Below, in pieces: positions 24,568 through 36,339 of a stretch of 64,000 nt of DNA. Where the stretch lies: contig VGXO01000001.1 in assembly GCA_016873275.1 (NCBI GenBank), positions 61,678 through 125,677 on the forward strand, read 5' to 3'. The stretch's first letter is position 1. Every line of letters starts with the position of its first letter. Source of the DNA: Phycisphaerae bacterium (lineage in GTDB: Bacteria > Planctomycetota > Phycisphaerae > Phycisphaerales > SM1A02). Under the pieces are notes generated by a model. The model made no database searches. It saw only the letters and a program-made list of their open reading frames with translations, and was not told where the DNA came from. Position numbers and translations under genes: made by a program.

Positions 24568-26139
24568 CTACGGCGCCGGCTCCTCGACCCGCGGGAAGAG
24601 CGCGACCTTCGTCACGCCCGCGTAGGTCCGCGCGGGATCGAGCCGCACCTGCGCCGCGAGCGTGCCGCCCTCCGCGACCGGGGGTCGGGAGAGCGCTCGG
24701 CGGAGCCGGTCCATCGAGCCGGGCATGAGCGGCGACAGGAGCGCGCTCGCCGCCTCGAGCACCTCGAGCGACTGGCGCAGGATCAGCGCAAGCTCGCCGC
24801 GCCGCGCGGGGTCCTTCGCGATCTTGAACGGCTCGGTGCGGTGGATGAAGCCGTCGAGCGACCGCATCAGGCCGATCCCCGCCTCGGCGAGCCGGTCGAT
24901 CGCGAACTCCGACGCCGCCTCCTCCGCCGCCCGCAGCGCCCGCGCGAGCGCCGCCGACCAGTCCTCTCCCGCCACCACCCGCGAGGGATCCTCGACCACG
25001 GGCAGCGTGCCCTCGAAGTAGCGCTCGACCATCGCGGTCACGCGGCTCGCGCCGTTGCCGACGGTGTTGACGAGGTCGGAGAGATACGCCTCGCGGAAGT
25101 GCGCGTCGCGGAAGTCGGCGTCGGAGGCGCCGAGCGGCCCGCGGGTCGCCATGAACCAGCGCCACGCGTCGAGACCGAACCGATCGTGGTAGCCGCGGAT
25201 CGCCTCGAGGTCGATGAAGTTCCCGAGGCTCTTGCTCATCTTCTGCCCGTCCTTGATCCAGAAGGCATGGGCGTAGATGCAGCGGGGCAGCGGCAGGTCG
25301 AGCGCCATCAGGAGCGCCGGCCATACCACCGCGTGGAACCAGAGGATCTCCTTGCCGACGACGTGGAAGGTGGCGGGCCAGTACCTCGCGCGGGGCGATC
25401 CCGCCGGATCCTGCTCGCCGAGACCGAGCGCCGTCGCGTAGTTGAAGAGCGCGTCGATCCACACGTAGACGACGTGCCCCGCCGCGCCCGGCATCGGGAT
25501 GCCCCACGTGAAGTTCGTCCGGGTGATGGGGACGTCCTGCAGGCCTTCCCGGAGCCGACCGATCACCTCGTTGCGACGACCCGCGGGTCGGACGAAGTCG
25601 GGGTTCTCCTCGAGGTGCCGCTCGAGCCTCGAGGTGAAGGCGCTCAGGCGGAAGTAGTAGTTCGACTCCCGCGCCCGCACGAGCGGTCGACCCGAGACGG
25701 GGCTCCGGTAGTCGAGCTCCTTCGCGCGGGTCTCGGTGTGGTACTCCTCCTGCGACTCGTCGTACCAGCCCTCGAACTCGCCGAGGTAGACCGCGCCGGA
25801 GTCCCTCAGCCGCTCGAGGAACCGCTCGACCTGCCGCTCGTGCCGCGGCTCGGTGGTGCGGATGAAGTCGTCGTTGGTGATCCCGAAGTCGCCGAGCACC
25901 CGCCGGAACTCCGCGGAGACCTCGTCGGCGAGCGCCCGCGGCGTCATGCCGCGCTCCTGCGCCGACTTCTCGACCTTCACCCCGTGCTCGTCGGTCCCGG
26001 TCAGGAAGAAGACGTCGCGGCCGGCGAGGCGCATGAACCTCGCCCAGGCGTCGCAGAGCGTCGTCGTATAGGCATGCCCGATGTGCGGCCGGTCGTTGAC
26101 GTAGTAGATCGGCGTGGTGACGTAGGCGGTCTCGGGCAT
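24568..26139 (-). CDS. metG: methionine--tRNA ligase
   Basis: Trimmed to MPETAYVTTPIYYVNDRPHIGHAYTT... (HIGH). KMSKSLGNF is present. Confidence 0.95.
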   Translation of the reverse strand: MPETAYVTTPIYYVNDRPHIGHAYTTTLCDAWARFMRLAGRDVFFLTGTDEHGVKVEKSAQERGMTPRALADEVSAEFRRVLGDFGITNDDFIRTTEPRHERQVERFLERLRDSGAVYLGEFEGWYDESQEEYHTETRAKELDYRSPVSGRPLVRARESNYYFRLSAFTSRLERHLEENPDFVRPAGRRNEVIGRLREGLQDVPITRTNFTWGIPMPGAAGHVVYVWIDALFNYATALGLGEQDPAGSPRARYWPATFHVVGKEILWFHAVVWPALLMALDLPLPRCIYAHAFWIKDGQKMSKSLGNFIDLEAIRGYHDRFGLDAWRWFMATRGPLGASDADFRDAHFREAYLSDLVNTVGNGASRVTAMVERYFEGTLPVVEDPSRVVAGEDWSAALARALRAAEEAASEFAIDRLAEAGIGLMRSLDGFIHRTEPFKIAKDPARRGELALILRQSLEVLEAASALLSPLMPGSMDRLRRALSRPPVAEGGTLAAQVRLDPARTYAGVTKVALFPRVEEPAP

Positions 26140-26196
26140 CGCGCGAGTATAAACCTCGCGGAGGACCTGCCCGCCGTCGCGCGTCGGCGCCCCGTG

Positions 26197-26856
26197 ATGA
26201 TCACCACCGACGACCAAGGCAGGCGACCACGCGGCCGAACGAGCGCGCCCGCGGTCGTCGGCACGATCGTGGTGATCGCCGCGGCGGTGCTCCTCGGGGT
26301 GGTGGGACCGCGTCTCGCCGACCGCGGCCTCGCGCCCACGGGAGTCCCGGTGTCTTCCGTGATCGAGTCGCTCTCCGCCCGTCACGCCGGTCTCGGTCCC
26401 GACCCGGATCCGTCGCGCCTTCCCTCCGACTGGCGGCGGCGCATCGCGGAGGAGACCCATCGAGAGGTGATGCTCCGCGACGACCTCGCCGCCGATGGAT
26501 GGACGCTCGTCGCGTTCCGCGCCGAGCCGCCGCGACCCTTCGCCGACCTGCCCGTCGCCGCGACCGCGCTCCTCGAGGCAGCCGATGGCGGACCACTCCT
26601 CTCGGTCACCGCGATCAGGGATGATGGGTCGATTCACCGCCTCGACGGCTTCGCGCGGCCGCGTCCGCTCCGCGAGGGCGAGCGGCTTCGCCTCGACGGC
26701 TCGCAGACGATCCATGGCACCGCCGTGCTCGCGGTCGTCGAGGGCGATCTGCTCTGGGTCCTCCTCTGCGAGGACGCCGCCCGCCTCGACGCCGTGGAGG
26801 ACGAGCTGCTCGGTCCGCCGCCGACCGCGGGGGACGCCGCGGACTCCCCGGCGTGA
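26197..26856 (+). CDS. hypothetical membrane-anchored protein
   Basis: Tail of the 671-aa fused ORF, trimmed to MITTDDQGRR.... One TM helix (VVGTIVVIAAAVLLGVVG). No family recognised. Confidence 0.5.
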   Translation: MITTDDQGRRPRGRTSAPAVVGTIVVIAAAVLLGVVGPRLADRGLAPTGVPVSSVIESLSARHAGLGPDPDPSRLPSDWRRRIAEETHREVMLRDDLAADGWTLVAFRAEPPRPFADLPVAATALLEAADGGPLLSVTAIRDDGSIHRLDGFARPRPLREGERLRLDGSQTIHGTAVLAVVEGDLLWVLLCEDAARLDAVEDELLGPPPTAGDAADSPA

Positions 26857-26899
26857 TGCGGGGACCCGCTTCGAATCCCTCTCCGCCCATTCCTTGAGC

Positions 26900-26924
26900 G
26901 GTCGCCGCTGCGGCGGCGACCTTT
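26900..26924 (+). terminator. terminator-like hairpin (9-bp stem, TGCG loop, TTT)
   Basis: ggtcgccgc-tgcg-gcggcgacc followed by ttt, 44 nt after the 26197..26856 stop. Confidence 0.4.
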
Positions 26925-26936
26925 GGTGCTTCGACC

Positions 26937-26974
26937 CGTGGTTGTGTTCGCTCGCACCGAGCGGCACAACCACG
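26937..26974. other. long imperfect hairpin at the left edge of the island
   Basis: cgtggttgtg-tt-cgctcg-cac-cgagcg-g-cacaaccacg, giving 10+6 bp of stem. Confidence 0.5.
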
Positions 26975-27126
26975 CTGCGTTTGGGGGGTTACGCGAGGGT
27001 GAAACGAAGCGGTGCGAACCACTGTTTCCGTTTGGGCGGTCGGGTGCTGTGACGCCCAGAATCTCAAACTTGGGCGCCGCTTTGGGGGCGAAGTGCGTCG
27101 CTTTTTGCGTCGCTTTGGAGGCGCGG

Positions 27127-27975
27127 TCAGCCCGCCCGGATCGCGTCTCGCAGCGCCTCGATCGCGGGCGCGCGCTCGGGTGCAACGCCTGCGGCCGCCC
27201 CCTGGAGGACGCCGTCCGCCTTCGTCGCGGCTGCGGAGAGAAGCGGGCTGTCCTCGGCGACGCCCGCCGCGCGCGCGCGCTCCAGCGTGCGCAGGAACTC
27301 GAGCACGGCTCCGTACGCGGCTTGCCAGTCGACCGTCACGACATCGGCCACGTCGCAACGCAGCAGCTGTGCCCACGGCGTCGGATCGAGGATCGTGCAG
27401 AAGCCGTGCTCCAGGCGCACGAGCCCGGCATCCGCCCACGATGCGGCCGTGTCCGCGACGCAGCGGTACGTGTAGCCGGTCGAGTCGGACACGTCGCGGC
27501 AGCGCACGCCGCGCGGGCTTCCGAGGAGCGCCACGATGAGATACGCGGCGCAGTCGTTCCCGAGCACGTCGCGCGACCGCAGGTGAAGCGATGCGGGGGT
27601 CGATGCCGCGAGGCCCACGTGCTTGCGCGTCACGAGTCGGCGAAGGCCGTTGATGCTCCGCCAGGCAGCAACGCGTGTCGCTTCTGCGGGCTCCTGTTCA
27701 TTGCGCCGCGTGAGCGTGTTGAGGCGCTGCGTATTGACGCGCGCGCGGTTCGTGGCGAACCAGCTTCGCACGGCCTCCTCGAGCCGCGGTTCGCTCCCGA
27801 AGAAGTGCAGCGAGCACCACAGCAGCGCCTCGGGGTCGATCACCTCAAGCGGTTGGTCGAACTCCGGTGTCTGGAAGGGCACGCCCAGCTCGCGCCACTG
27901 CACGTGCAGCACGTCGAGCAGCGCCGCGCGGACGCGCTCCTCACGCGATGTAGTAGGCGAGGTCTTCATGGCCAA
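27127..27975 (-). CDS. hypothetical protein with possible winged-helix segment
   Basis: 282-aa ORF that overlaps the upstream NTase gene by about 35 nt. The segment ...CAAYLIVALLGSPRGVRCRDVSDSTGYTYRCVADTAASWADAGLVRLE looks wHTH-like. No family recognised. Confidence 0.55.
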   Translation of the reverse strand: MAMKTSPTTSREERVRAALLDVLHVQWRELGVPFQTPEFDQPLEVIDPEALLWCSLHFFGSEPRLEEAVRSWFATNRARVNTQRLNTLTRRNEQEPAEATRVAAWRSINGLRRLVTRKHVGLAASTPASLHLRSRDVLGNDCAAYLIVALLGSPRGVRCRDVSDSTGYTYRCVADTAASWADAGLVRLEHGFCTILDPTPWAQLLRCDVADVVTVDWQAAYGAVLEFLRTLERARAAGVAEDSPLLSAAATKADGVLQGAAAGVAPERAPAIEALRDAIRAG

Positions 27976-28555
27976 GCTCCTGCAGGAACTCGCGCAGCTC
28001 GGCGCGGAGTTGGTGGTTGCGGTCGGGGATCGTGATCACCCAGTCGATGGCGAACCGCAGCTCTTCTTCGTTCGGGGCGAGTTCGCGCAAGTCCGACTTA
28101 TGCACCGACTGTCGACCGTGTGCGGCGTCGACCGCCGCGAACAGCTTGAAGGCGATCAGGTCGCGCCGGTCCGGAAGCCGCAGCGTGAGGTGCGTGCCGA
28201 TGTGGCGGGGGGTGAGCCTTCCCGTGCATCCAGGTGGCAGGCCGAAGTCGAGGAGTCCCTTGGGACCGAGGTTGACCCAGCTGATCCCAGACGACTTGAG
28301 CTCGGAATGCGCGTCGGCCACGCGCACGATGGCTCGTTCCACCGCGGGTGGGAAGCGATCGATCTGGACGATCTGCAGCGTTGCGGAACTCCAACCGCTG
28401 ATCACGTCGACGTCGCGCGTCGGCCGTTGCACCAGGCCGAGGATCCCGAGGGCGGTACCGCCGCAGACGATCCAGTCCACGGGCTCGGCGCCCTCGATCG
28501 CGAGCGCGTCGTTGAGCTCGCGGAGCAGGGGATGGGTGGCGGCGGGATCGATCAT
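27941..28555 (-). CDS. nucleotidyltransferase-fold protein (AbiEii-like NTase motif, short form)
   Basis: Trimmed to the in-frame ATG (MIDPAATHPLL...), because the upstream codons are AT-rich. WIVCGGTALGILGLVQRPTRDVDVIS fits the hG[GS]x9-13Dh[DE]h motif of pol-beta NTases and AbiEii. Confidence 0.65.
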   Translation of the reverse strand: MIDPAATHPLLRELNDALAIEGAEPVDWIVCGGTALGILGLVQRPTRDVDVISGWSSATLQIVQIDRFPPAVERAIVRVADAHSELKSSGISWVNLGPKGLLDFGLPPGCTGRLTPRHIGTHLTLRLPDRRDLIAFKLFAAVDAAHGRQSVHKSDLRELAPNEEELRFAIDWVITIPDRNHQLRAELREFLQELGHEDLAYYIA

Positions 28556-28640
28556 GGGGGTTCCTCGGCTGGAACAGTAGGCTACAGGGCATAAATGTAG
28601 AAGTTTAAGTTCCACAAAGACGCACCGGAGACTCTTCGAT

Positions 28641-28751
28641 GGACAGATAACTGCTATGACGCCCTACGGCAGTGCAGGAAGGGCGGTCCGATTCGCTCCT
28701 CCTACAGCGGCTGTCCCCGGTGTCACCGGAACCGAAACCCCTTCTCACGCG
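28641..28751. repeat. third, degenerate copy of the island junction module
   Basis: Contains ggacagat and tgtcaccggaaccgaaaccccttctcacgc. Compare cgtcaccggtgccgaaaccccttcgcgc at about 29641 and cgtcaccggtaccgaaaccgcctcgcg at about 32801. Confidence 0.45.
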
Positions 28752-28796
28752 TGCCCGCCATCGATTTCGGCGACGCCGACGGCACGCCGTGGGCGG

Positions 28797-29438
28797 TCAA
28801 CCCCTGGCCGCGAGCAGGACGTCGACGTACGGCGCCATCACCGCCTGCACGCGGTTGATGCGCGCGAAGTGCAGTAGGTCCTTCACCTTTGCATCCTTGC
28901 GACGCAGGTAGGTGCGCAGCGCCTCGATCGCGATGTCCTTGCCGATCTTGTTGCGGAACTTGAAGCAGTCGGCGACGGTCTTCGCGGCCCCGTAGACGCG
29001 GAGCTCGCGACCACCGACCTTGATGCGCTCGATGCCGACGGCAAACGATGCGTCACCGAAGCGATAGAAGCGCACCGGTGGGTGTTCAAGCTTGCGGTCC
29101 TTGAAGCCGCGCGGCACCGCGAGGTCGACCGCATGCGGGATCTGCGTGGTGAGGCGGTGGTGGGCCAGCGCCGAGACAAGACAGACGATTGCCTTGGGCA
29201 CCTTCCGGGCCACCACCGCGAGATCGGGTTCCGATGGCGCTGCATCGGCAAGTTGGTAGACGCCGCGGTCGAGCCTGACCACCGTGCCATCCTCCACGAG
29301 CGCCGCCAGCGTGCGCGGATGGATGCCAGCAGCCTTGGCCTCTTGGGTGCGGAGGATGCCCTCGGCGCGCCGGAAGGCGGCCGTTGCCCTCCGGGTTGGG
29401 GGCTTTGGGATCGGGGTGCTGGAGGGGGCGCGCGGCAT
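28797..29438 (-). CDS. abiEi: AbiEi-family type IV toxin-antitoxin antitoxin / transcriptional regulator
   Basis: ILRTQEAKAAGIHPRTLAALVEDGTVVRLDRGVYQLAD (AbiEi N-terminal wHTH) plus ...IVCLVSALAHHRLTTQIPHAVDLAVP.... Trimmed to MPRAPSS because the first 13 codons of the ORF are AT-rich and hold a promoter-like inverted repeat. Confidence 0.8.
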   Translation of the reverse strand: MPRAPSSTPIPKPPTRRATAAFRRAEGILRTQEAKAAGIHPRTLAALVEDGTVVRLDRGVYQLADAAPSEPDLAVVARKVPKAIVCLVSALAHHRLTTQIPHAVDLAVPRGFKDRKLEHPPVRFYRFGDASFAVGIERIKVGGRELRVYGAAKTVADCFKFRNKIGKDIAIEALRTYLRRKDAKVKDLLHFARINRVQAVMAPYVDVLLAARG

Positions 29439-29450
29439 AGGGATCGAAAG

Positions 29451-29476
29451 TGCTACAGATATCGACAAGTGTAGCA
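29451..29476. promoter_or_regulatory. inverted repeat TGCTACA-N12-TGTAGCA overlapping a TACACT -10-like hexamer upstream of abiEi
   Basis: Read from the sequence. It lies 13-38 nt upstream of the abiEi ATG. Confidence 0.45.
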
Positions 29477-29530
29477 TCTACGATCCATCTTTGTGGATGA
29501 TCTTCGTCGAAAGCCTGTGCTCAGCCCCCG

Positions 29531-29775
29531 CAAAACTGGTCGTCTGAGAAGGACAGATTGGCGGTAATCTGGTCGTCTGAGAAGGACAGATGGTCCTGGC
29601 ACACTGGCCCGACGTATCCCCGCGCCCACGGCGTCACCGCGTCACCGGTGCCGAAACCCCTTCGCGCTCAAGCCGTCGCGCGGACCGGCGCCGCCTGCGC
29701 CTCGGCCTCACCGACCGGGGCATGCACCTGATCGCCACCGCGAAGTGCGCATCCCGCGTCTGCAGGGAGTGCTTC
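29531..29775. repeat. island junction module, copy 1 (about 245 bp)
   Basis: Aligns by eye with 32693..32937 at roughly four-fifths identity. It includes two 23-mers, a palindromic box and the integrase 3' tail. Confidence 0.8.
29536..29591. repeat. two direct 23-bp repeats, CTGGTCGTCTGAGAAGGACAGAT, at 33-bp spacing
   Basis: Identical copies at 29536-29558 and 29569-29591. Anchored on the stop of ORF 29284..29547. Confidence 0.85.
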
Positions 29776-29934
29776 GCCGCCACCAGCGGACTGCGGCCAA
29801 CCCAGTTGGCGACCACGTGGACGGGAGAGGTCTCGGCCCAGTCGGTGGCGAAGTTCGAAGTTCGCGCGCACGACGCACAAGGACGGTGGCCACGAATCGG
29901 ACTCCGCCCGGCGGCCCGGACACGAGCCGATCGG
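29668..29934 (-). pseudogene. tyrosine recombinase C-terminal remnant (frameshifted)
   Basis: Hand translation: ...CASCARTSNFATDWAETSPVHVVANWVGRSPLVAAKHSLQTRDAHFAVAI.... It resembles the box II end of planctomycete-type integrases (LRaS..TeL....P.HVv..WlGhS..vA.kHYLQvtdeHF). The expected Tyr reads Ser, the frame breaks before the ...GEAEAQAAPVRATA stop, and there is no N-terminal part. Confidence 0.55.
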
Positions 29935-31308
29935 TCACTGATCGCCCAAGGAAGGGAGGCTGCCGCCCTCGTCGTCCACCGCTTCCCAGAAGGCCCGCTT
30001 GAGCCGGTGGCGGGACGCCAGTTCGGCGTCGAACGCTCGCTGGTCGGCGTTCAGTCCGGCGACCGGGGCCAGCGCCCGCATCCGGACGAGGTACCACGCG
30101 GCGTGTGCGTAGACCTTGCGGCGGCCATCCGCGAGGATCGACTCGAGCATCGCTCGGTAGAGGCGCCAACTCGCGCTCGGCGCGGCCGGCTCGAGACGCT
30201 TCGCAAGCCGCAGCAGCACGCCGTACTCGTGGCCGTCGAGTTCCGCGGCCCGCTCGGTGACCAGCTGTGCTGCCTCGTGCAGGGCGTCCGCCTCGAGCAG
30301 GAAGTCAAGCGCGACATGGACGTCGGGATGACGCGACGCCACACCGAGCGCCCGCTTCCGCCGCTCCGTCGCGCCGGTGTCCGGGCTCGAACGCGCCTCG
30401 ATGTCCGCAAGCGCCGCGAGGCTCGGTCGGCGACTGAACTCCTCCCACAGTGCTGCAGCGGCCTCGTCCAATCGCCCGAGCCGACGCAACGCCAACGAGC
30501 GCACCATCGCCGCACCATACGGCTCGTCGTGCGGCCGACTTGGATCACGATCCCGATGCGCTGCCACCGCGCGATCGATCCACGCGAGCGCCTCCTCGTG
30601 GCGGCCGGCCTCCATCAGTCGTCGTGCGATCGCGATGCCAAGGTGATGCGCCGGGCCGTCGAGGTTGCACAGGCGGATGAACTCGTCGACTTCCCCCAAG
30701 CCGTCCGCGATGTCGCGGAGATGGGTCGCGAGGCTCGATCGTGCGCTCAGCCGGCTGCTCGACTCGCGCGACCAGGAAGCCCGTTCCGCGGCGGTCAGCG
30801 GAGGAACGGCCGCGAGCTCGGCCTCGTAGCGGCGGCGCAGCGTGTGAAGCCCCTCGGGCCCGAGCGCGGCGACGAATCCTGCGATCATGTGGTCGGAGAT
30901 CGGGCTCGCGGCCTTCTCGACGCGACTGCGGACCATGGCAGCCAGCTTCTTCCGGTCCCGCGGTTCGATGCGGGCCCATGCCGCACCCCAGAGCCGGGTC
31001 GCCCTCGAGCACAGCGGATGGAACACGCCGCCCGAGTCGTCGATCCGTTCGGTCACCGGACCAGATGAGTTCACGATCCGCTTCAGCAGCGGCTCGGCCT
31101 CGGTGGCCCGACCCGCCTCGATCATCCGCTCGAGCTCATCGAGGCAGGGGGCGAGCATCGCCGCGAGTTCGGAGGCGACTCCGTACGGCCCGGGGCGCCG
31201 CCGTGCAGACGCGAAGACGGCTTCCACCGCCTCGTCGATCGGGATCGCCACACCGGTGTTCCTCGGCTTCCTCCTCAATGCCCGAGCTCCCGGCGAGCTT
31301 CGGGGCAC
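29935..31308 (-). CDS. hypothetical alpha-helical repeat protein
   Basis: 457-aa ORF with coding-like composition, immediately downstream of the ATPase. No family confidently recognised. Confidence 0.6.
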   Translation of the reverse strand: MPRSSPGARALRRKPRNTGVAIPIDEAVEAVFASARRRPGPYGVASELAAMLAPCLDELERMIEAGRATEAEPLLKRIVNSSGPVTERIDDSGGVFHPLCSRATRLWGAAWARIEPRDRKKLAAMVRSRVEKAASPISDHMIAGFVAALGPEGLHTLRRRYEAELAAVPPLTAAERASWSRESSSRLSARSSLATHLRDIADGLGEVDEFIRLCNLDGPAHHLGIAIARRLMEAGRHEEALAWIDRAVAAHRDRDPSRPHDEPYGAAMVRSLALRRLGRLDEAAAALWEEFSRRPSLAALADIEARSSPDTGATERRKRALGVASRHPDVHVALDFLLEADALHEAAQLVTERAAELDGHEYGVLLRLAKRLEPAAPSASWRLYRAMLESILADGRRKVYAHAAWYLVRMRALAPVAGLNADQRAFDAELASRHRLKRAFWEAVDDEGGSLPSLGDQ

Positions 31309-31333
31309 GGAACCGGAAGCCGCCTCCGCCCGC

Positions 31334-32677
31334 TCATGGCGACGCCAGCAGCCACTGGTGGGCCGCGATCACGCGTGTCTTGCGATGGGTCATCGAGCGA
31401 ACGAGGCCCGGGTCGAGGACGATCACGGCGCGTTCGGCCTTCGGATGCTCGTCGCCCCCGGCATCGAGAGCGCGAGTCTCGCGGCTCCACGTCGCCGGGT
31501 CCGACCCGTCGGCGCAGACCTGGATCAGTTCCTGCCGACCATCCGGGTGGCGTGCGAGGAAGTCGACCTCGAAGCCGTCCTTCGTCTTCACGTAGGCGAC
31601 TTCGGCGCCGCGCCGGGACAGCTCGTTGTAGACGGCGGTCTCTAGCGCGTGGCCGGTGTTCGATCGCCCGCTCGTGTCGAAGGCGTCGATCAGACCGGGA
31701 TCCGCGGGGTAGACCTTCCGTGGGTTCGTGTTTCGTCGGCGCTCCGAATCCGTGGCGACCGGCACCGCGGCGATGACGAAGGCGTCGATCAGGTGGTCCA
31801 GCAGCGCGTGAACCGTGTCCTTCGCCACGTTGTGGCCTTGCGAGCGAAGATCGTCGTGCAGCTTGTTGGCGCTGAGGCTGCCGCAAGGGTTCCGCAGTGC
31901 GTGTCGGATGATCCAGCGCAGTGCGGCGACCTGCGACACCGCATGCCGCTCGATCACGTCCCGGAAGAGCATGGTGTCGATGTAGCCCTGCAAGAGCGCG
32001 ATCCGGGTGGCGCGGTCGAGCGGCCGCTTGCCCGAACCTTGCGCTTCGGGAAACCCGCCCACCACGAGGTACTCGCGGAGGCGCTTTTCGACCGCGCTCC
32101 TCAATGCTGCCGTCAGTCGATCCGCACGCACCGTCGGCTCCTCGCCGCGGTGGCGGAGCGCCTCGCGGAAGCTGAAGGGCGCGATCACGGTGGGCATGGC
32201 GCGGCCGCGGAGGGAGCTGTGGATCTCGCGCGACAGCATGCGCGCAGACGACCCGGACACGACGATGTCGATCGACTCGGTGTCGAGCACGCGCCGGACG
32301 AAACGATCCCAGCCTTCCACCAGCTGGATCTCGTCGAGGAACCACGCGGCACGGCCCTTCCTTCCATCCTTGCCGCGGATCTCCGGGTGGCGGCGGAAGT
32401 ACTCCTCGAGGAGGGCGTCGAGATGGGACGCGTCGATCCCTGCGAGACGGTCGTCGTCAAAGCTCAGGTAGATCGATCGTTCCGGCGGACCGCTCTTGCG
32501 CCGCTCGGCAAGCAGCTGCCTGAGGAAGCACGTCTTTCCCGCGCGACGCATCCCGATCACGGCATGCGCCTTCCCCGGCACGGCGGGCGGGACGGCGTCG
32601 CGCCGCGTGAGGGTGGTGGCGGCAAGCGGCAGCAGCGCGTCGCTGAGCTTCTCCTGGAGCGCGTCGAGCAGGGGCAT
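31334..32677 (-). CDS. AAA+ ATPase of the AAA_14/DUF4143 type
   Basis: Trimmed to MPLLDALQEKL.... Contains GMRRAGKT (Walker A), AWFLDEIQLVEGW (Walker B) and VVSGSSARML...LRGRA...PFSFREAL, typical of this family. Confidence 0.85.
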   Translation of the reverse strand: MPLLDALQEKLSDALLPLAATTLTRRDAVPPAVPGKAHAVIGMRRAGKTCFLRQLLAERRKSGPPERSIYLSFDDDRLAGIDASHLDALLEEYFRRHPEIRGKDGRKGRAAWFLDEIQLVEGWDRFVRRVLDTESIDIVVSGSSARMLSREIHSSLRGRAMPTVIAPFSFREALRHRGEEPTVRADRLTAALRSAVEKRLREYLVVGGFPEAQGSGKRPLDRATRIALLQGYIDTMLFRDVIERHAVSQVAALRWIIRHALRNPCGSLSANKLHDDLRSQGHNVAKDTVHALLDHLIDAFVIAAVPVATDSERRRNTNPRKVYPADPGLIDAFDTSGRSNTGHALETAVYNELSRRGAEVAYVKTKDGFEVDFLARHPDGRQELIQVCADGSDPATWSRETRALDAGGDEHPKAERAVIVLDPGLVRSMTHRKTRVIAAHQWLLASP

Positions 32678-32692
32678 GTCGCAAGGGTAGTC

Positions 32693-32937
32693 CGAAACTG
32701 GCCGTCTGAGAAGGATAGATTGTAGAGAATCTGGCCGTCTGAGAAGGACAGATGGTTCCGGCTCACTGGCTCGACGCATCCCCGCGCCCACGGTGTCACC
32801 GCGTCACCGGTACCGAAACCGCCTCGCGTTCAGGCCGTTGCCCGGATGGGGGCTGCCTGCGCCTCGACCTCTCCCACGCGGGGCATGTCCCTGATCGCCA
32901 CCTCGAAGTGCGCGTTCGCCCTCCACTGCGGGCGCGG
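32693..32937. repeat. island junction module, copy 2
   Basis: Direct repeat of 29531..29775, offset 3162 bp. Confidence 0.8.
32698..32753. repeat. two direct 23-bp repeats, CTGGCCGTCTGAGAAGGA(T/C)AGAT, at 33-bp spacing
   Basis: Copies at 32698-32720 and 32731-32753. The nearer copy ends 20 nt upstream of the ATPase ATG at 32677. Confidence 0.85.
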
Positions 32938-33518
32938 GCACTGATCGATGATCCGCTGCACCACCTCGTGACGCACGCACACGGCGCGGTCGGGAGTCGA
33001 CTGCGGCCTGGCGCGCAGGTGCTCGAAGGGGTTCTCGGGGACGAGCTTCCAGCGCCGCGCGCGGCTGAAGATGCACTTGGCCACGTTGACGCGCTTCGCG
33101 ATCGTCGCCGCGGCAAGCGGCTTGCGCCGGTCGCCCTTCCCGGATGAACGATCCCTGTTGCCACATGCTGCGGAACCCCCGATCGAGGTACGTCCGTCGG
33201 CACGACCGGTGGTCGCCCGGGGCGCCCGCCCGCTCGCGCAGCGCGACCCACCCAGGAAGCCCCCACGTTGCCCCGTGTGCCCTCGGCCACACCCAGTCCG
33301 CCCGACGCCGGTCCCGCCGCCCCTGCGTTCCGTGTGGCACCAGTACGCGTCCGCCCGCCGCCCGCACCCTCCGTCCGGTCTTCCGCCTTCTGCGCGCGAT
33401 CGCGCCACTCGTCGAGACCCTCGGGATAGAGCCGGGGTTTCGAGTCCTCTCCGCCCCAAGGTCGTTTCCGGACCTTCCCCGTGCTCCTCTTCCGGAACAT
33501 CTTTTCCGGACCAGTCAT
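32830..33518 (-). pseudogene. tyrosine recombinase remnant: N-terminal/core-binding part fused to the extreme C-terminal tail
   Basis: ...PLAAATIAKRVNVAKCIFSRARRWKLVPENPFEHLRARPQSTPDRAVCVRHEVVQRIIDQCPRPQWRA joins directly to NAHFEVAIRDMPRVGEVEAQAAPIRATA. The whole catalytic domain is missing. The upstream N-terminal part is spread over three frames (MTGPEKMFRKRSTGKVRKRPWGG... in another frame). Confidence 0.5.
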
Positions 33519-33606
33519 CGATTCGGAACGGATGACTTCGTACGCTCGATCGCCGCGACGCCGATCAACCTGATCCATCCTTGGACGGTCTCTGCAGACC
33601 GACATC

Positions 33607-35424
33607 ATGAGCCACCCCACGACCCGACACGCCGCCCTCCTGCTCGCCGCCATCGCCGTCTCCGCGGCGAGTGCGCAGAACGCCCTCGACCACAACCTCC
33701 AGCGCGGACCTGGCGCCTCGCGGGTCAACCCCGCCGCCCGCCAGGCCGACCTCCGCTCCCAGAACGAGGACGTGACCGGCACGCTCGCGGGCGGGCGCAG
33801 CTTCCGCGGCCGGGTGGACTACCGACCGAGCGGCGACTTCTACGGGACGGTCGCCGCCGACTCGCTGCAGCGGCCGCTCGCCTTCAGCGCGTTCAGCTCG
33901 CCGTCCTTCTTCAACTCGCCGCTGCGGAACGACCAGTTCCGCGTGGCGGACAACCTCGGCTCGTTCACCTTCCGCCGCGAGTACGCGACGCTGCCCGTCA
34001 TCGAGAACGTCGGGCAGGCGTCGGCGCTCGTCGAGAACCAGATCCGCCTCGACCGCACCAATGCCGCGATGATCAGCGGCACGCTCTTCGGCACCGCGGT
34101 CTCCTCGACGAGCATCGGGCTCGTGCGCGACGCGGAGCGGGGCTCGGCGCTCGTCACCGCCTCGCCGCTGCAGGGCGTGCGGCGGAATCCGCTCTCCGAC
34201 CCGCTCCTCGCCGCGAACCTCTCGCCGCTCGACCGCGCGCGGGTGATGGACGACGCCCGCGAGGGAACGCTCCGCGCCTCCTCGGTGGGCACGCCCTTCC
34301 GCAGCGCCCTCGCCACGCCGAGGTCCTCGAGCGAGGTGACGCCGCCCGCGGGCATGCTGGTGCCGCCCGCCTCGACCGCCCTCGTCACGGGACAGGTCGA
34401 GGCGCCCCGCGTCGAGCCGACGCCGATCGACCGCGACGCCGCCTACGAGCGGATCGTCGAGCGGATCCTGGTCCAGTTCTCCGACCGCGATGACGTCCGG
34501 ATCACCGCCGACGAGCGGGTGCTCGACGTGGTGCGGACGCGGCTCGAGGAGCTCCGCCGCAACATCGACGGGACGCTGCCCTCGACCGACGGCTCCGGGA
34601 CGCGTCGCAGGGGCGATCCCGGCGACCTGATCATGCCGGGCATGCGCGAGGACGCCGCTCCGGCGAGACCGGGCATGCCCAGGCTGCCGGGAGAGCGCCT
34701 CCGCGAGGAGTACGCCCCGGCGGCGGCACCCGAGATGCGCGGCGGCGCCGCCGAGCTGCCGGGAATCGGCGAGCTCACCCGGGACCCGCTCGCCTCGCCC
34801 GCCCAGCAGCGCGAGCGCGACCGCATGGTGCCCGAGGAGCGGGTCCTCTCGATCGACGAGATGGCGACGATCCTGCGGCATGGTCGCCTCGTCGAGAGCC
34901 TCACCGAGGGCGACCGCACCCGCATCGCCGAGCTCATCGACCAGGGTCAGCAGCTGATCGCGAAGGGGGACTTCTTCCGCGCCGAGCGCCGCTTCGAGTC
35001 GGCGCTCCGGCTGCAGCCGGACCACCCGATGGCGTCGGTGGGGATCGCGAGCTCGCAGATCGGCGCGGGGCTCTACCTCTCCGCGGGGCTGACGCTGCGG
35101 AAGCTCTTCTCGACCTATCCCGAGATGATCGACGTCCGCTACGCCGACGACCTGCTTCCCTCGCGCGACCGGCTCGACGCGGTGAAGACGGTGTGCCGCG
35201 AGCGCATCGCGCTCGGTCGGGACGTCGCCGGCTACGCGCTCGTCCTCGCCTTCGTCGGTCACCAGACGAGCGACCGCGAGGCGGTGATCGAGGGACTCGA
35301 GGTGGTGCAGACCGAGGACGAGACCCGCGGGCTCGGCGAGCTCCTGTGGGCGATCTGGATGCCGAAGGACGACGCCGCGGAGGCTCCGTCGGAGGAGCCG
35401 GCCGCGGACCCCTCGTCGCCCTGA
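33607..35424 (+). CDS. hypothetical secreted protein with C-terminal TPR-like region
   Basis: Signal peptide MSHPTTRHAALLLAAIAVSAASAQNA. C-terminal ...LIAKGDFFRAERRFESALRLQPDHPMA... is TPR-like. Confidence 0.6.
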   Translation: MSHPTTRHAALLLAAIAVSAASAQNALDHNLQRGPGASRVNPAARQADLRSQNEDVTGTLAGGRSFRGRVDYRPSGDFYGTVAADSLQRPLAFSAFSSPSFFNSPLRNDQFRVADNLGSFTFRREYATLPVIENVGQASALVENQIRLDRTNAAMISGTLFGTAVSSTSIGLVRDAERGSALVTASPLQGVRRNPLSDPLLAANLSPLDRARVMDDAREGTLRASSVGTPFRSALATPRSSSEVTPPAGMLVPPASTALVTGQVEAPRVEPTPIDRDAAYERIVERILVQFSDRDDVRITADERVLDVVRTRLEELRRNIDGTLPSTDGSGTRRRGDPGDLIMPGMREDAAPARPGMPRLPGERLREEYAPAAAPEMRGGAAELPGIGELTRDPLASPAQQRERDRMVPEERVLSIDEMATILRHGRLVESLTEGDRTRIAELIDQGQQLIAKGDFFRAERRFESALRLQPDHPMASVGIASSQIGAGLYLSAGLTLRKLFSTYPEMIDVRYADDLLPSRDRLDAVKTVCRERIALGRDVAGYALVLAFVGHQTSDREAVIEGLEVVQTEDETRGLGELLWAIWMPKDDAAEAPSEEPAADPSSP

Positions 35425-35442: not shown

Positions 35443-36339
35443 CTACCGCCGCAGCGACTGCGGACCGGCGAGCCCGAGGGTCCGCTGGATGTCGCGGGTC
35501 GCGCGGCTTCGGTTGAGCGTGTAGAAGTGGATGCCCCGCACGCCCTGGTCGATCAGGTCGCGGCACTGCTCGGTCGCCCAATGGGTGCCCACTCGCGCGA
35601 CCGACTCCGGATCGTCGCGGCATCGGTCGAGCGCCCGCAGCAGCGGCGCCGGGAAGCGGGTGCCGCCGGCGAGGTCCGCCATCCGCCGCATGCCCGCGAG
35701 GCTCGTGATCGGCATGATCCCCGCGATGATCGGCACCCCGATGCCCGCGAGGCGGCAGCGGTCGCACCAGTCGAGGAAGACGCGGTTGTCGAAGAACATC
35801 TGCGAGCAGACGTAGTCCGCGCCCGCGTCGACCTTCGCCTTGAGGTGCTCGAGCTGGACGAGGGTGTTGGGCGTCTCGGGATGCCCCTCGGGGAATCCCG
35901 CGACGCCGATCCCGAAGCCGCCCGGCACGCCGAGGTCCGCGCGGCGGATCTCCGCGACGAGGTCGGCGGCGTGGCGGAAGTCGCCTGGCTCGAGCCGACC
36001 CTCCCGCGGCGGGTCGCCGCGGAGCGCGAGGAGGTTCGACACCCCCGCCTGCGCGTAGCGCTCGAGGATGGACCGCACCTCGTCGCGGCGGTGACCGAGG
36101 CAGGTGAGGTGCGGGATCGGCTCGAGCGAGGTCTCGCGGCGGAGGCGCACCACGAGGTCGTGGGTGCGGTCGCGGGTCGATCCGCCGGCGCCGTAGGTGA
36201 CCGAGACGAAGGACGGACGCAGGGACTCGAACTCTCGGATCGACTCGAAGAGCACGCTCCAGCCCGCGTCGTCCTTCGGGGGGAAGAACTCGTAGCTGAT
36301 GGTGACCGGATCGCGTCCGAGGATCTCGCGGATGTGCAT
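35443..36339 (-). CDS. metF: methylenetetrahydrofolate reductase
   Basis: Trimmed to MHIREILGRDPVTISYEFFPPK.... Contains ...VSVTYGAGGSTR...HLTC...LALRGDPP.... Confidence 0.93.
   Translation of the reverse strand: MHIREILGRDPVTISYEFFPPKDDAGWSVLFESIREFESLRPSFVSVTYGAGGSTRDRTHDLVVRLRRETSLEPIPHLTCLGHRRDEVRSILERYAQAGVSNLLALRGDPPREGRLEPGDFRHAADLVAEIRRADLGVPGGFGIGVAGFPEGHPETPNTLVQLEHLKAKVDAGADYVCSQMFFDNRVFLDWCDRCRLAGIGVPIIAGIMPITSLAGMRRMADLAGGTRFPAPLLRALDRCRDDPESVARVGTHWATEQCRDLIDQGVRGIHFYTLNRSRATRDIQRTLGLAGPQSLRR

What the first reader, a model, noticed from the sequence alone, without database searches (positions are those of the whole stretch)
26880..33600. Decayed integrative island between metG and metF
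About 6.7 kb is wedged between housekeeping genes, and every gene in it is on the minus strand. The intergenic stretches are visibly AT-richer than the surroundings. The region holds two tyrosine-recombinase fragments and three copies of one non-coding module. The cargo is of the toxin-antitoxin or defence type: abiEi, an NTase, a wHTH protein, an AAA_14/DUF4143 ATPase and a helical protein. It reads as serial accretion and decay of small integrative elements at one site.
Basis: partly seen in the sequence, partly recalled or inferred. Interest (0 to 1): 0.7.

Follow-up and report, generated by a model that had tools for sequence, protein, structure and literature searches.

The report
Fossil stack of tRNA-Tyr integrative elements
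A 6.5-kb insertion in a freshwater Phycisphaerales genome is the decayed remnant of about three stacked mobile elements that normally insert at the tRNA-Tyr gene; it still carries toxin-antitoxin and candidate anti-phage genes, and it is a well-documented but ordinary kind of genomic island.

Summary
Window 26,870-33,457 is a real insertion. The three closest relatives (metG 79-80% identical) have the same gene order, with only about 0.35-0.5 kb where the window has 6.75 kb. No island gene lies near metG in any of 64 Planctomycetota loci.

The island is bounded by two direct copies of the last 20 nt of tRNA-Tyr(GTA). These are the only two matches in the 64 kb. Just inside them lie two terminal arms that are homologous to the ends of related elements, and those related elements sit at genuine tRNA-Tyr genes. 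No tRNA gene exists at this site, so this was most likely a secondary-site integration.

Reading along the minus strand, the island holds three "integrase tail + cargo" units:
- An integrase with an in-frame deletion of residues 222-364, followed by an AAA_14/DUF4143 ATPase (PADLOC candidate PDC-S01) and a DUF6880 protein.
- An integrase C-terminal stub (Tyr changed to Ser), followed by AbiEi without its usual AbiEii partner.
- A trace of a third integrase 3' flank, followed by a DUF6036-type nucleotidyltransferase and a 280-aa winged-helix protein from an unnamed family.

The backbone genes of intact relatives are gone. The cargo genes are under purifying selection.

This is a known kind of feature. 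Interest is modest (0.3).

The parts
26870..26889 (+). Left att core (attL-like). It is a perfect copy of the last 20 nt of tRNA-Tyr(GTA), from the T-loop to the discriminator base. No tRNA body lies upstream of it.
   Evidence: It is identical to the 3' end of the tRNA-Tyr genes in L091, L094, L106, L107, L129, L145 and L149. ARAGORN finds no tRNA here.
26890..27126 (.). tRNA-proximal terminal arm of the element (P' arm). It includes the conserved hairpin GTGGTTGTG...CACAACCAC at about 26939-26974.
   Evidence: blastn gives 73-86% identity to the segment next to tRNA-Tyr in more than 25 loci. The sequence is shown.
27127..27969 (-). p282, a 280-aa protein from an unnamed family with a central winged helix-turn-helix. 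It is the inferred regulator or antitoxin partner of the NTase.
   Evidence: No Pfam, NCBIfam or PADLOC hit. It has 108 homologues without annotation. The AlphaFold2 model has pLDDT 92. It has no global PDB match, only local winged-helix matches. dN/dS is 0.14-0.18. Its start overlaps the NTase stop by 29 nt.
27941..28555 (-). 204-aa nucleotidyltransferase of DUF6036 / weak AbiEii type. It is the inferred toxin or effector.
   Evidence: PF08843 scores 24.8 bits against a cut-off of 22.5; PF19502 E=4e-4. The pair with p282 is conserved in L099, L100 and L148. The L094 copy has an in-frame stop while p284 stays intact. There is no blastp similarity to the L091 AbiEii.
28597..28615 (-). Palindrome GTGGAACTTAAACTTCTAC upstream of the NTase. 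It is a candidate operator.
   Evidence: It is conserved in L094, L095 and L099. Its function is inferred.
28722..28744 (-). Core motif copy C (GAAGGGGTTTCGGTTCCGGTGAC). It is the last trace of a third integrase 3' flank.
   Evidence: In L148 the same motif follows an integrase tail and precedes NTase-p282. It is also present upstream of the NTase in L094 and L095.
28797..29477 (-). AbiEi antitoxin / transcriptional regulator (the start may be at 29438). Its usual AbiEii partner is missing.
   Evidence: PADLOC AbiEi E=8e-70 and Pfam AbiEi_4 E=2e-11. It is 84% identical to the L091 AbiEi, which is followed within 14 nt by a 305-aa AbiEii. dN/dS is 0.16.
29533..29750 (-). Module copy B. It comprises the integrase C-terminal codons, the stop, the core motif (29641-29663) and two direct repeats TCCTTCTCAGACGACCAG (29536-29553 and 29569-29586).
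   Evidence: It is 84% identical to L091 across AbiEi + module + integrase tail.
29671..29935 (-). Integrase remnant B. It covers roughly the C-terminal 60-90 residues, is frameshifted, and has the catalytic Tyr replaced by Ser (AAKHS).
   Evidence: tblastn with the reconstructed integrase. DNA homology to L091 runs 29671-29853. The tblastn extension to 30029 overlaps the DUF6880 coding sequence and is not trusted (L103 match).
29935..31251 (-). DUF6880 helical / TPR-like protein (438 aa).
   Evidence: PF21810 E=8e-54 and a weak PADLOC PDC-S62 hit at E=3e-5. Homologues elsewhere are not linked to AAA_14.
31334..32677 (-). AAA_14 ATPase + DUF4143 (a PD-(D/E)XK family) protein, 447 aa. It matches the PADLOC defence candidate PDC-S01.
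   Evidence: PF13173 E=1.5e-29, PF13635 E=2.5e-15, PDC-S01 E=5e-88. DUF4143 is listed as a PD-(D/E)XK family in PMC3424549.
32695..32913 (-). Module copy A. It comprises the integrase tail, the stop, the core motif (32803-32825) and two direct repeats TCCTTCTCAGACGGCCAG (32698-32715 and 32731-32748).
   Evidence: It is 92% identical to L091 and 98.5% identical to L104.
32833..33207 (-). Integrase remnant A. Residues 125-221 are fused in frame to residues 365-392, with the junction at 32917/32916. The catalytic domain and residues 1-124 are missing.
   Evidence: tblastn. The same internal deletion occurs in P0001, P0002 and L104.
33195..33433 (.). Integrase-distal terminal arm of the element (P arm).
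   Evidence: It is 72-79% identical to the sequence next to the att core at tandem-junction (attP-like) sites in L134, L152, L154 and L168, and to the start of the L163 locus, upstream of its backbone genes, where no att core was found.
33434..33457 (+). Right att core (attR-like), GGGGTTTCGAGTCCTCTCCGCCCC. It is a degenerate tRNA-Tyr 3'-end copy, followed by native intergenic DNA (GTTTCCGGACC is conserved in relatives).

Best explanation
Window 26,870-33,457 is an immobile fossil of about three stacked members of one family of small integrative elements. In freshwater Phycisphaerae this family normally integrates into the 3' end of tRNA-Tyr(GTA).

Intact members have this layout: distal arm, 246-aa gene, 77-aa gene, HTH_17, DUF3987 (846 aa), 121-aa gene, tyrosine integrase, an optional cargo slot, proximal arm, tRNA-Tyr.

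Here the element or stack entered a site with no tRNA, the geneX-p605 spacer. Entry was most likely by integrase-mediated recombination with a pseudo-attB that resembled the tRNA-Tyr 3' end, with the crossover at or near the T-loop sequence TTCGA. This is inferred.

Deletions then removed all backbone genes and most of each integrase. They spared both terminal arms, both att cores, the last 30-120 codons of each integrase with the adjoining ~130-nt non-coding stretch (the 'module'), and the cargo.

The cargo probably still functions as three independent units:
1. A PDC-S01-type AAA_14 ATPase with a DUF4143 PD-(D/E)XK nuclease domain, plus a DUF6880 protein. This is a candidate anti-phage effector.
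2. An orphan AbiEi repressor/antitoxin.
3. A translationally coupled DUF6036 nucleotidyltransferase and winged-helix pair. It is inferred to work like an AbiE/MenT-type toxin-antitoxin with the gene order reversed.

The module is inferred to be the promoter/operator region, or the integrase arm-site region, of the cargo slot. That would explain why it is retained repeatedly when the rest of the integrase is deleted.
For: Shown:
- The island is absent from L011-L013, whose gene order is otherwise identical, and no island gene lies next to metG in any of 64 loci.
- The boundary repeat matches exactly twice in the window, with 0.00 expected by chance.
- The left arm is homologous to the tRNA-Tyr-adjacent arm of more than 25 loci. 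The right arm is homologous to the distal arm at tandem junctions.
- tRNA-Tyr lies next to related integrases or cargo in L091, L094, L106, L107, L129, L145 and L149.
- The intact backbone and a full-length integrase are present in L107 and L105.
- The reconstructed integrase hits PF00589. The window fragments map to residues 125-221+365-392 and to about 273/333-392.
- Each cargo unit occurs alone behind an integrase of this family elsewhere.
- Cargo dN/dS is 0.14-0.19, against 0.23 for metF.
- Pfam and PADLOC assignments come, and the p282 model.
- The island is present in every contig of this population that reaches the junction.

Crossover inference: the left core is canonical only from TTCGAAT onward. 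The right core keeps the canonical GGGG(G/T) and P arm upstream but is degenerate downstream.
Against: - No empty-site allele was found, so the pseudo-attB is reconstructed rather than observed.
- In relatives the stop-to-GTTTCCGGACC spacing (16-19 nt) is closer to the window spacing with both cores removed. This weakly suggests that neither core was native.
- L104 carries the same dead integrase + AAA_14 + DUF6880 block at 98.5% identity in a different upstream context. Homologous recombination between element copies, not only serial integration, therefore built or moved at least part of the stack.
- No junction att core survives between the units.
- The functions of the cargo and of the module are inferred from family membership and position only. 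No sigma-70-like promoter was detected.
Confidence: 0.85

Rival explanations
1. The stack was assembled mainly by homologous recombination, meaning cassette exchange between related element copies that used integrase tails, modules and arms as homology. Under this view a single integration event was followed by swapping or insertion of cargo blocks, rather than by successive integrase-mediated integrations.
For: L104 has the identical internally deleted integrase + module + AAA_14 + DUF6880 at 98.5% identity, but with the L091-type upstream junction. The window's left unit is a mosaic: 26870-28625 resembles L094 (83%) and 28827-29853 resembles L091 (84%), with AbiEii replaced exactly between them. 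No internal att junction survives.
Against: Tandem junctions with an intact att core between two elements do exist in this family (L134, L152, L154, L158, L168), so true serial integration happens. Modules A and B are only 86% identical to each other, so they come from different donor elements. The two routes are not mutually exclusive.
Confidence: 0.3
2. The island can still be mobilised. An intact integrase and excisionase from a sister element elsewhere in the genome could excise it in trans, because both att cores and both arms are retained.
For: Both cores and about 240 nt of each arm are present. Intact integrases of the family (90-97% identical to the reconstruction) exist in related metagenomes, including Lake Tanganyika-type samples. 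Assemblies often break inside the arms or modules, as expected if other copies exist.
Against: The right core has three changes. The proximal arm is separated from the module by cargo. Every contig of the population that reaches the junction carries the island, and no empty site or circular junction was seen.
Confidence: 0.1
3. The region is ancestral and was deleted in the relatives, or it is a native operon with slightly unusual composition.
For: The GC difference is modest (0.687 against 0.72). Some native genes (geneX, recO, CHAD) have equally low GC3.
Against: The island is absent from all 64 related loci, including about 38 that keep p605 next to metG. It is flanked by element arms and tRNA-Tyr-derived repeats. 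It contains integrase remnants.
Confidence: 0.02
4. The repeated modules are recombination sites of an integron-like or dif-module-like cassette array served by a dedicated recombinase.
For: A short core motif precedes each of the three cargo units, and all units are co-oriented.
Against: There is no intact recombinase. Half of each module is integrase coding sequence. The third copy is only 23-35 nt. No attC-like imperfect palindrome or Xer-type site was seen. In a cargo-free intact element (L107) the same position holds different direct repeats. Rfam finds nothing.
Confidence: 0.03

Closest known systems
tRNA-gene-targeting genomic islands / integrative elements with tyrosine integrases (sublocation classes of Williams 2002, cited from my own knowledge)
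   Same: The tyrosine integrase sits next to the target. There are direct repeats of the tRNA 3' end at both ends. The crossover is inferred in the T-loop. Tandem accretion occurs at one att site, followed by decay into an anchored island.
   Different: There is no tRNA gene at this site. Only 20-nt tRNA-Tyr 3'-end copies are present, so it is a secondary (pseudo-attB) site. The integrases are dead and the backbone is deleted.
Defence-gene hotspots of small integrative elements and phage satellites (P4/P2 hotspots, Rousset et al. 2022; cited from my own knowledge)
   Same: A conserved backbone (integrase, HTH_17/AlpA-like gene, large DUF3987 protein) has one variable slot. Across copies the slot carries different toxin-antitoxin or defence genes: none, AbiE, PDC-S01-like, NTase-wHTH or ParE.
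   Different: The host is Planctomycetota. There is no evidence of a helper phage or capsid-related genes. The slot lies between the integrase 3' end and the tRNA-proximal arm.
AbiE type IV toxin-antitoxin / abortive infection system (AbiEi wHTH antitoxin + AbiEii GTP-specific NTase; Dy et al. 2014, Hampton et al. 2018; cited from my own knowledge)
   Same: The AbiEi homologue is clear (PADLOC E=8e-70). An NTase gene lies downstream on the same strand.
   Different: The cognate 305-aa AbiEii seen in L091, L129, L130 and L159 is missing. The downstream NTase is a 204-aa DUF6036 type with no blastp similarity to that AbiEii. It is separated from AbiEi by about 240 nt and is coupled to p282 in other genomes.
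PADLOC phage-defence candidate PDC-S01 (AAA_14 + DUF4143 single-gene candidate)
   Same: The match covers nearly the full length, E=5e-88. The domain pair AAA_14 + DUF4143 is present.
   Different: This is a candidate only, and I know of no experimental validation. Here it is followed by a DUF6880 gene that is not a conserved partner (L149 lacks it).

Membership tests
Tyrosine recombinase (Pfam PF00589 Phage_integrase) | Sequence homology to the family | tested here: met
   The window fragments alone give no Pfam or NCBIfam hit. They are 74-93% identical to parts of a 392-aa reconstruction (P0003+P0010) that hits PF00589 at E=6e-12, 46 bits against a cut-off of 27.
Tyrosine recombinase (Pfam PF00589 Phage_integrase) | Complete catalytic domain with the R..K..H-x-x-R..H/W..Y residues, meaning a functional enzyme | tested here: not met
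   Remnant A lacks residues 222-364 and 1-124. Remnant B covers only the C-terminal part, is frameshifted and reads KHS instead of KHY.
tRNA-linked integrative genomic island | Flanking direct repeats derived from the target tRNA 3' end | tested here: met
   The repeats are at 26870-26888 and 33439-33456. They are the only matches in 64 kb, with 0.00 expected by chance, and they match the tRNA-Tyr genes of L091, L094, L106, L107 and others.
tRNA-linked integrative genomic island | An intact target tRNA gene at one end | tested here: not met
   ARAGORN finds only tRNA-Thr and tRNA-Trp, about 11-13 kb away. Sequence upstream of the left core is not tRNA-like. No relative examined has a tRNA between metG and p605.
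tRNA-linked integrative genomic island | Presence/absence polymorphism relative to related genomes | tested here: met
   The island is absent from L011-L013 and from all other syntenic loci. It is fixed within its own population.
AbiE type IV toxin-antitoxin | AbiEi antitoxin (N-terminal wHTH plus C-terminal domain) | tested here: met
   PADLOC AbiEi E=8e-70 over residues 32-221; Pfam AbiEi_4 E=2e-11.
AbiE type IV toxin-antitoxin | Cognate AbiEii NTase immediately downstream in a bicistronic operon | tested here: not met
   There is a 240-nt gap containing core motif C. The downstream NTase only just passes PF08843 (24.8 against 22.5 bits), its PADLOC AbiEii hit is E=0.006, and it has no blastp similarity to the L091 AbiEii.
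PADLOC PDC-S01 | Full-length match to the candidate's HMM | tested here: met
   E=5e-88, residues 37-445 against profile positions 29-408 of 412.
PADLOC PDC-S01 | Demonstrated anti-phage activity | not testable with these tools
   The family has candidate status only, and nothing on it was found in the paper library.
Integron / cassette array | Intact IntI-type integrase, attI, and attC sites bounding each cassette | tested here: not met
   There is no intact recombinase. The repeated modules are integrase tails plus flank rather than attC-like palindromes.

The most novel reading that the evidence does not exclude
Two novel readings are not excluded.

First, the integrase tail + module may be a selected cis-element. 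It would act both as the promoter/operator of the cargo slot and as a portable homology handle. On this reading the tRNA-Tyr elements of freshwater Phycisphaerae form a cassette-exchange platform that keeps working after the integrase dies.

Second, the DUF6036 NTase + p282 pair may be a new two-gene toxin-antitoxin or abortive-infection system with a previously undescribed winged-helix antitoxin fold.
Probability: 0.25. Interest if true: 0.5.

Novelty: new member of a known kind. Interest (0 to 1): 0.3.

Why it matters
The locus gives a clean, fully bounded example of how defence and toxin-antitoxin genes become fixed in a poorly studied phylum. Mobile elements deliver them, the mobility genes decay, and the cargo stays under selection.

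It also defines a family of tRNA-Tyr-targeting elements in freshwater Phycisphaerae with a variable cargo slot.

It points to one uncharacterised gene pair worth testing: the DUF6036 NTase with a 280-aa winged-helix protein that has no Pfam family and no global structural match in the PDB.

None of this changes current understanding of genomic islands.

Tried and rejected
- A decayed tRNA-Tyr gene in situ. Rejected: sequence upstream of the left core is not tRNA-like, and no relative has a tRNA here.
- SSV-type integrase partition (att inside int). Rejected: the att cores lie in the terminal arms, not in the integrase gene.
- An integron-like or dif-module array. Rejected; see the rival explanations.
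- AAA_14 and DUF6880 as a conserved two-gene system. Rejected: DUF6880 homologues in L101-L103 have no AAA_14 neighbour, and L149 has AAA_14 without DUF6880.
- Core-motif copies inside the DUF3987 coding sequence (L107, L105, L121, L124). They have 3-5 mismatches and were treated as coincidental coding similarity, not as evidence of arm sites.
- An empty-site allele. Looked for by looking up identical geneX and p605 proteins in about 20 contigs. None was found: every contig carries the junction or ends inside the arm.
- Rfam scan of 26000-34000: no hit at E<=0.1.
- Sigma-70 promoter scan: none. Terminator-like sites were no more frequent than chance.
- PDB sequence searches for p282, the NTase and the AAA_14 protein: nothing significant.
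- Literature searches for DUF6036 and DUF4143: only the PD-(D/E)XK survey was useful.
- An RNA fold of the modules failed on the tool's length limit and was not repeated.

Full report
**Context and gene map.** The window has 71.8% GC. GC3 and frame analysis, together with Pfam, give this map:
- metG at 24568-26004 (-)
- a membrane protein, here called geneX, at 26197-26856 (+)
- five minus-strand ORFs
- a 605-aa secreted TPR-like protein, here called p605, at 33607-35424 (+)
- metF at 35443-36339 (-)

Searching genome collections with metG shows that the organism is a freshwater Phycisphaerales bacterium of the Planctomycetota. The closest genomes are at 79-80% MetG identity. Twenty or so metagenome contigs, many of them JGI Ga0194xxx and Logan assemblies, are 99.4-100% identical to the window across the region.

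**Is it an insertion?** Yes.
- L011, L012 and L013 have recO-p209-rex-metF-p605-geneX-metG-AsmA-CHAD in the same order and orientation.
- In those three loci only about 0.35-0.5 kb separates the geneX 3' end from the p605 start. The window has 6.75 kb there.
- Across 64 Planctomycetota loci, about 38 of which keep p605 beside metG, none has a homologue of any island gene nearby.
- Island GC is 0.687, against 0.72-0.73 in the flanks, which is the lowest 2% of 6.5-kb windows. Island GC3 is 0.82-0.86, against 0.91-0.96 for most neighbouring core genes.
- Island spacers are AT-richer (0.61-0.64), but native spacers are too, so that point is true without being diagnostic.

**Boundaries.**
- The left edge carries TTCGAATCCCTCTCCGCCCA (26870-26889). 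The right edge carries GGGGTTTCGAGTCCTCTCCGCCCC (33434-33457).
- These are the only two matches in 64 kb to the 3' end of a tRNA-Tyr(GTA) gene within five edits. A gapped pattern gives 2 matches against 0.00 expected by chance.
- The identity of the repeat came from related loci. In L091, L094, L106, L107, L129, L145 and L149 the same 20-mer is the 3' end of an intact tRNA-Tyr lying just beyond the cargo of a related element.
- Inside the left core, 26937-27126 is 73-86% identical to the tRNA-adjacent arm of more than 25 loci and includes a conserved hairpin.
- Inside the right core, 33195-33433 is 72-79% identical to the arm on the other side of the att core at tandem-element junctions in L134, L152, L154 and L168, and to the start of the L163 locus, upstream of its backbone genes, where no att core was found.
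- The island therefore has both genuine element termini.
- No tRNA gene exists here, nor in any relative's metG-p605 interval.
- The left core is canonical only from the T-loop onward. The right core keeps the canonical upstream GGGG plus the P arm but is degenerate downstream. This is the pattern expected from an integrase crossover in the T-loop with a pseudo-attB. It is an inference.
- A 20-mer within three or four edits of the target is expected by chance roughly once per genome (my own estimate).
- The spacing seen in relatives is weak evidence against a native 20-mer.

**The integrase.**
- The fragments alone hit no family. A homology search recovered overlapping partial proteins that assemble into a 392-aa protein, and this protein matches PF00589 (E=6e-12).
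- Full-length copies exist in L105, L106 and L107.
- Remnant A (33207-32833) equals residues 125-221 fused in frame to residues 365-392. The catalytic domain and the first 124 residues are gone.
- Remnant B (about 29935-29671) is a frameshifted C-terminal stub that reads KHS in place of KHY.
- More distant relatives of the integrase sit at tRNA-Val and tRNA-Met.

**The element family.** Intact copies (L107, L105/L093, L121, L124, L163) carry 246-aa, 77-aa, HTH_17, DUF3987 (846 aa), 121-aa and integrase genes, followed by the proximal arm and tRNA-Tyr. The stretch between the integrase stop and the arm is a variable slot:
- empty in L107 (450 nt)
- AbiEi-AbiEii in L091, L129, L130 and L159
- AAA_14/DUF4143 alone in L149
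- NTase-p282 in L148
- ParE-HTH followed by a second decayed integrase in L093

The window contains three such "integrase tail + cargo" units in series and none of the backbone. Similar stacks, and tandem junctions with an intact att core, occur elsewhere (L134, L148, L152, L154). This supports serial accretion followed by deletion.

L104 adds a qualification. It carries the same internally deleted integrase + module + AAA_14 + DUF6880 at 98.5% identity, but with the 246-aa gene upstream. Homologous recombination between copies therefore also moves these blocks.

**The 'module'.**
- Copies A (32695-32913) and B (29533-29750) are 86% identical.
- Each consists of the last ~30 integrase codons, the stop codon, a core motif GAAGGGGTTTCGGnnCCGGTGAC, and two 18-nt direct repeats 33 nt apart that end 20-60 nt before the first cargo gene.
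- The third copy is only the core (28722-28744). In L148 the same core follows an integrase tail and precedes NTase-p282, so copy C is the last trace of a third integrase flank.
- The repeat pair occurs upstream of different cargo: AbiEi, AAA_14 and an unidentified cargo in L134. It therefore belongs to the element, not to AbiEi.
- The cargo-free L107 has four different direct repeats at the same place.
- I infer that the module is the slot's promoter/operator region, its integrase arm-site region, or both.
- Deletion endpoints in integrase remnants differ among loci (residues 238, 292, 298, 315, 365), yet the tail is always kept. This fits selection on the module. It is not shown.

**Cargo.**
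- The AAA_14/DUF4143 protein matches PADLOC candidate PDC-S01 (E=5e-88). DUF4143 is listed as a PD-(D/E)XK family (PMC3424549).
- The DUF6880 assignment is clear (E=8e-54), but the gene is not a conserved partner of AAA_14.
- The AbiEi assignment is clear (E=8e-70). Its 305-aa AbiEii partner, present in L091 and others, has been replaced here.
- The downstream 204-aa NTase is a DUF6036 type. It barely passes the AbiEii Pfam cut-off and shows no blastp similarity to the L091 AbiEii.
- In L099, L100 and L148 that NTase is coupled to p282 instead. In L094 it carries an in-frame stop while its partner is intact, as expected if the NTase is the toxic component.
- p282 has 108 unannotated homologues. 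Its AlphaFold2 model is confident (pLDDT 92) and has a central winged helix. No global PDB match exists; the only matches are local ones to ArsR/MarR-type domains with weak E-values.
- Cargo dN/dS is 0.14-0.19, so these genes have been under purifying selection.

**Verdict.** Added here are exact boundaries, the tRNA-Tyr origin of the att sites, the absence of a tRNA at this site, the structure of the parent element family, the nature of the module, and the orphan status of AbiEi. The feature is a new member of a well-known kind. The only parts with some novelty potential are the NTase-p282 pair and the repeated retention of the integrase-tail module.

Noticed in passing
window 28597-28615 (minus strand): The near-perfect palindrome GTGGAACTTAAACTTCTAC lies about 45 nt upstream of the NTase start. 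It is conserved in L094, L095 and L099 (77-93% identical surroundings). It is a likely operator of the NTase-p282 operon.
   Followed up: partly
window 29362-29421: Among contigs that are otherwise 99.7-100% identical, there is a 15-nt in-frame indel plus a cluster of SNPs in the AbiEi N-terminal region. Most SNPs across the 13-kb comparison fall inside the island.
   Followed up: partly
window 26939-26974: The hairpin GTGGTTGTGTTCGCTCGCACCGAGCGGCACAACCAC is conserved immediately next to tRNA-Tyr in more than 25 related loci. It may be a tRNA terminator or a protein-binding site in the attachment arm.
   Followed up: partly
L104 1-2820 (ENA ERZ27247375 k141_1405751): This contig has the same internally deleted integrase, module, AAA_14 and DUF6880 as the window at 98.5% identity. 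Upstream, however, it is joined to the 246-aa backbone gene, as in L091. A dead block therefore exists in a second context, which implies movement by homologous recombination.
   Followed up: partly
L107 5638-11706 (Ga0255182_1000134): This is an apparently intact, cargo-free element: 246-aa, 77-aa, HTH_17, DUF3987, 121-aa genes and a full-length integrase, then 450 nt with four CTACGGAG direct repeats, then tRNA-Tyr and tRNA-Thr(TGT). Its distal att was not found within five edits.
   Followed up: partly
L091 1-9768 (ENA KRAE22-1 scaffold_181): A BREX-like cluster (PglZ, methyltransferase, a 1154-aa protein, BrxB) sits directly upstream of the 246-aa gene and the decayed integrase of the same element family at tRNA-Tyr. 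This suggests a larger defence island at that site.
   Followed up: no
L109, L110, L113, L159 (tRNA-Val) and L138 (tRNA-Met): Integrase relatives at 40-63% identity lie next to tRNA-Val or tRNA-Met instead of tRNA-Tyr. L159 has AbiEi-AbiEii and a tRNA-Tyr-type arm but ends at tRNA-Val(CAC).
   Followed up: no
window 24568-26973 (minus) and 24841-26856 (plus): Long mechanical ORFs here are misleading. The 801-aa minus ORF is metG plus a non-coding extension. The C-terminal third of the 671-aa plus ORF is the real geneX (26197-26856).
   Followed up: yes
window 33458-33606: The native spacer upstream of p605 contains two copies of TTTCCGGACC (33466-33475 and 33503-33512). One copy of this motif is conserved in the same spacer of L011-L013. 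Function unknown.
   Followed up: no
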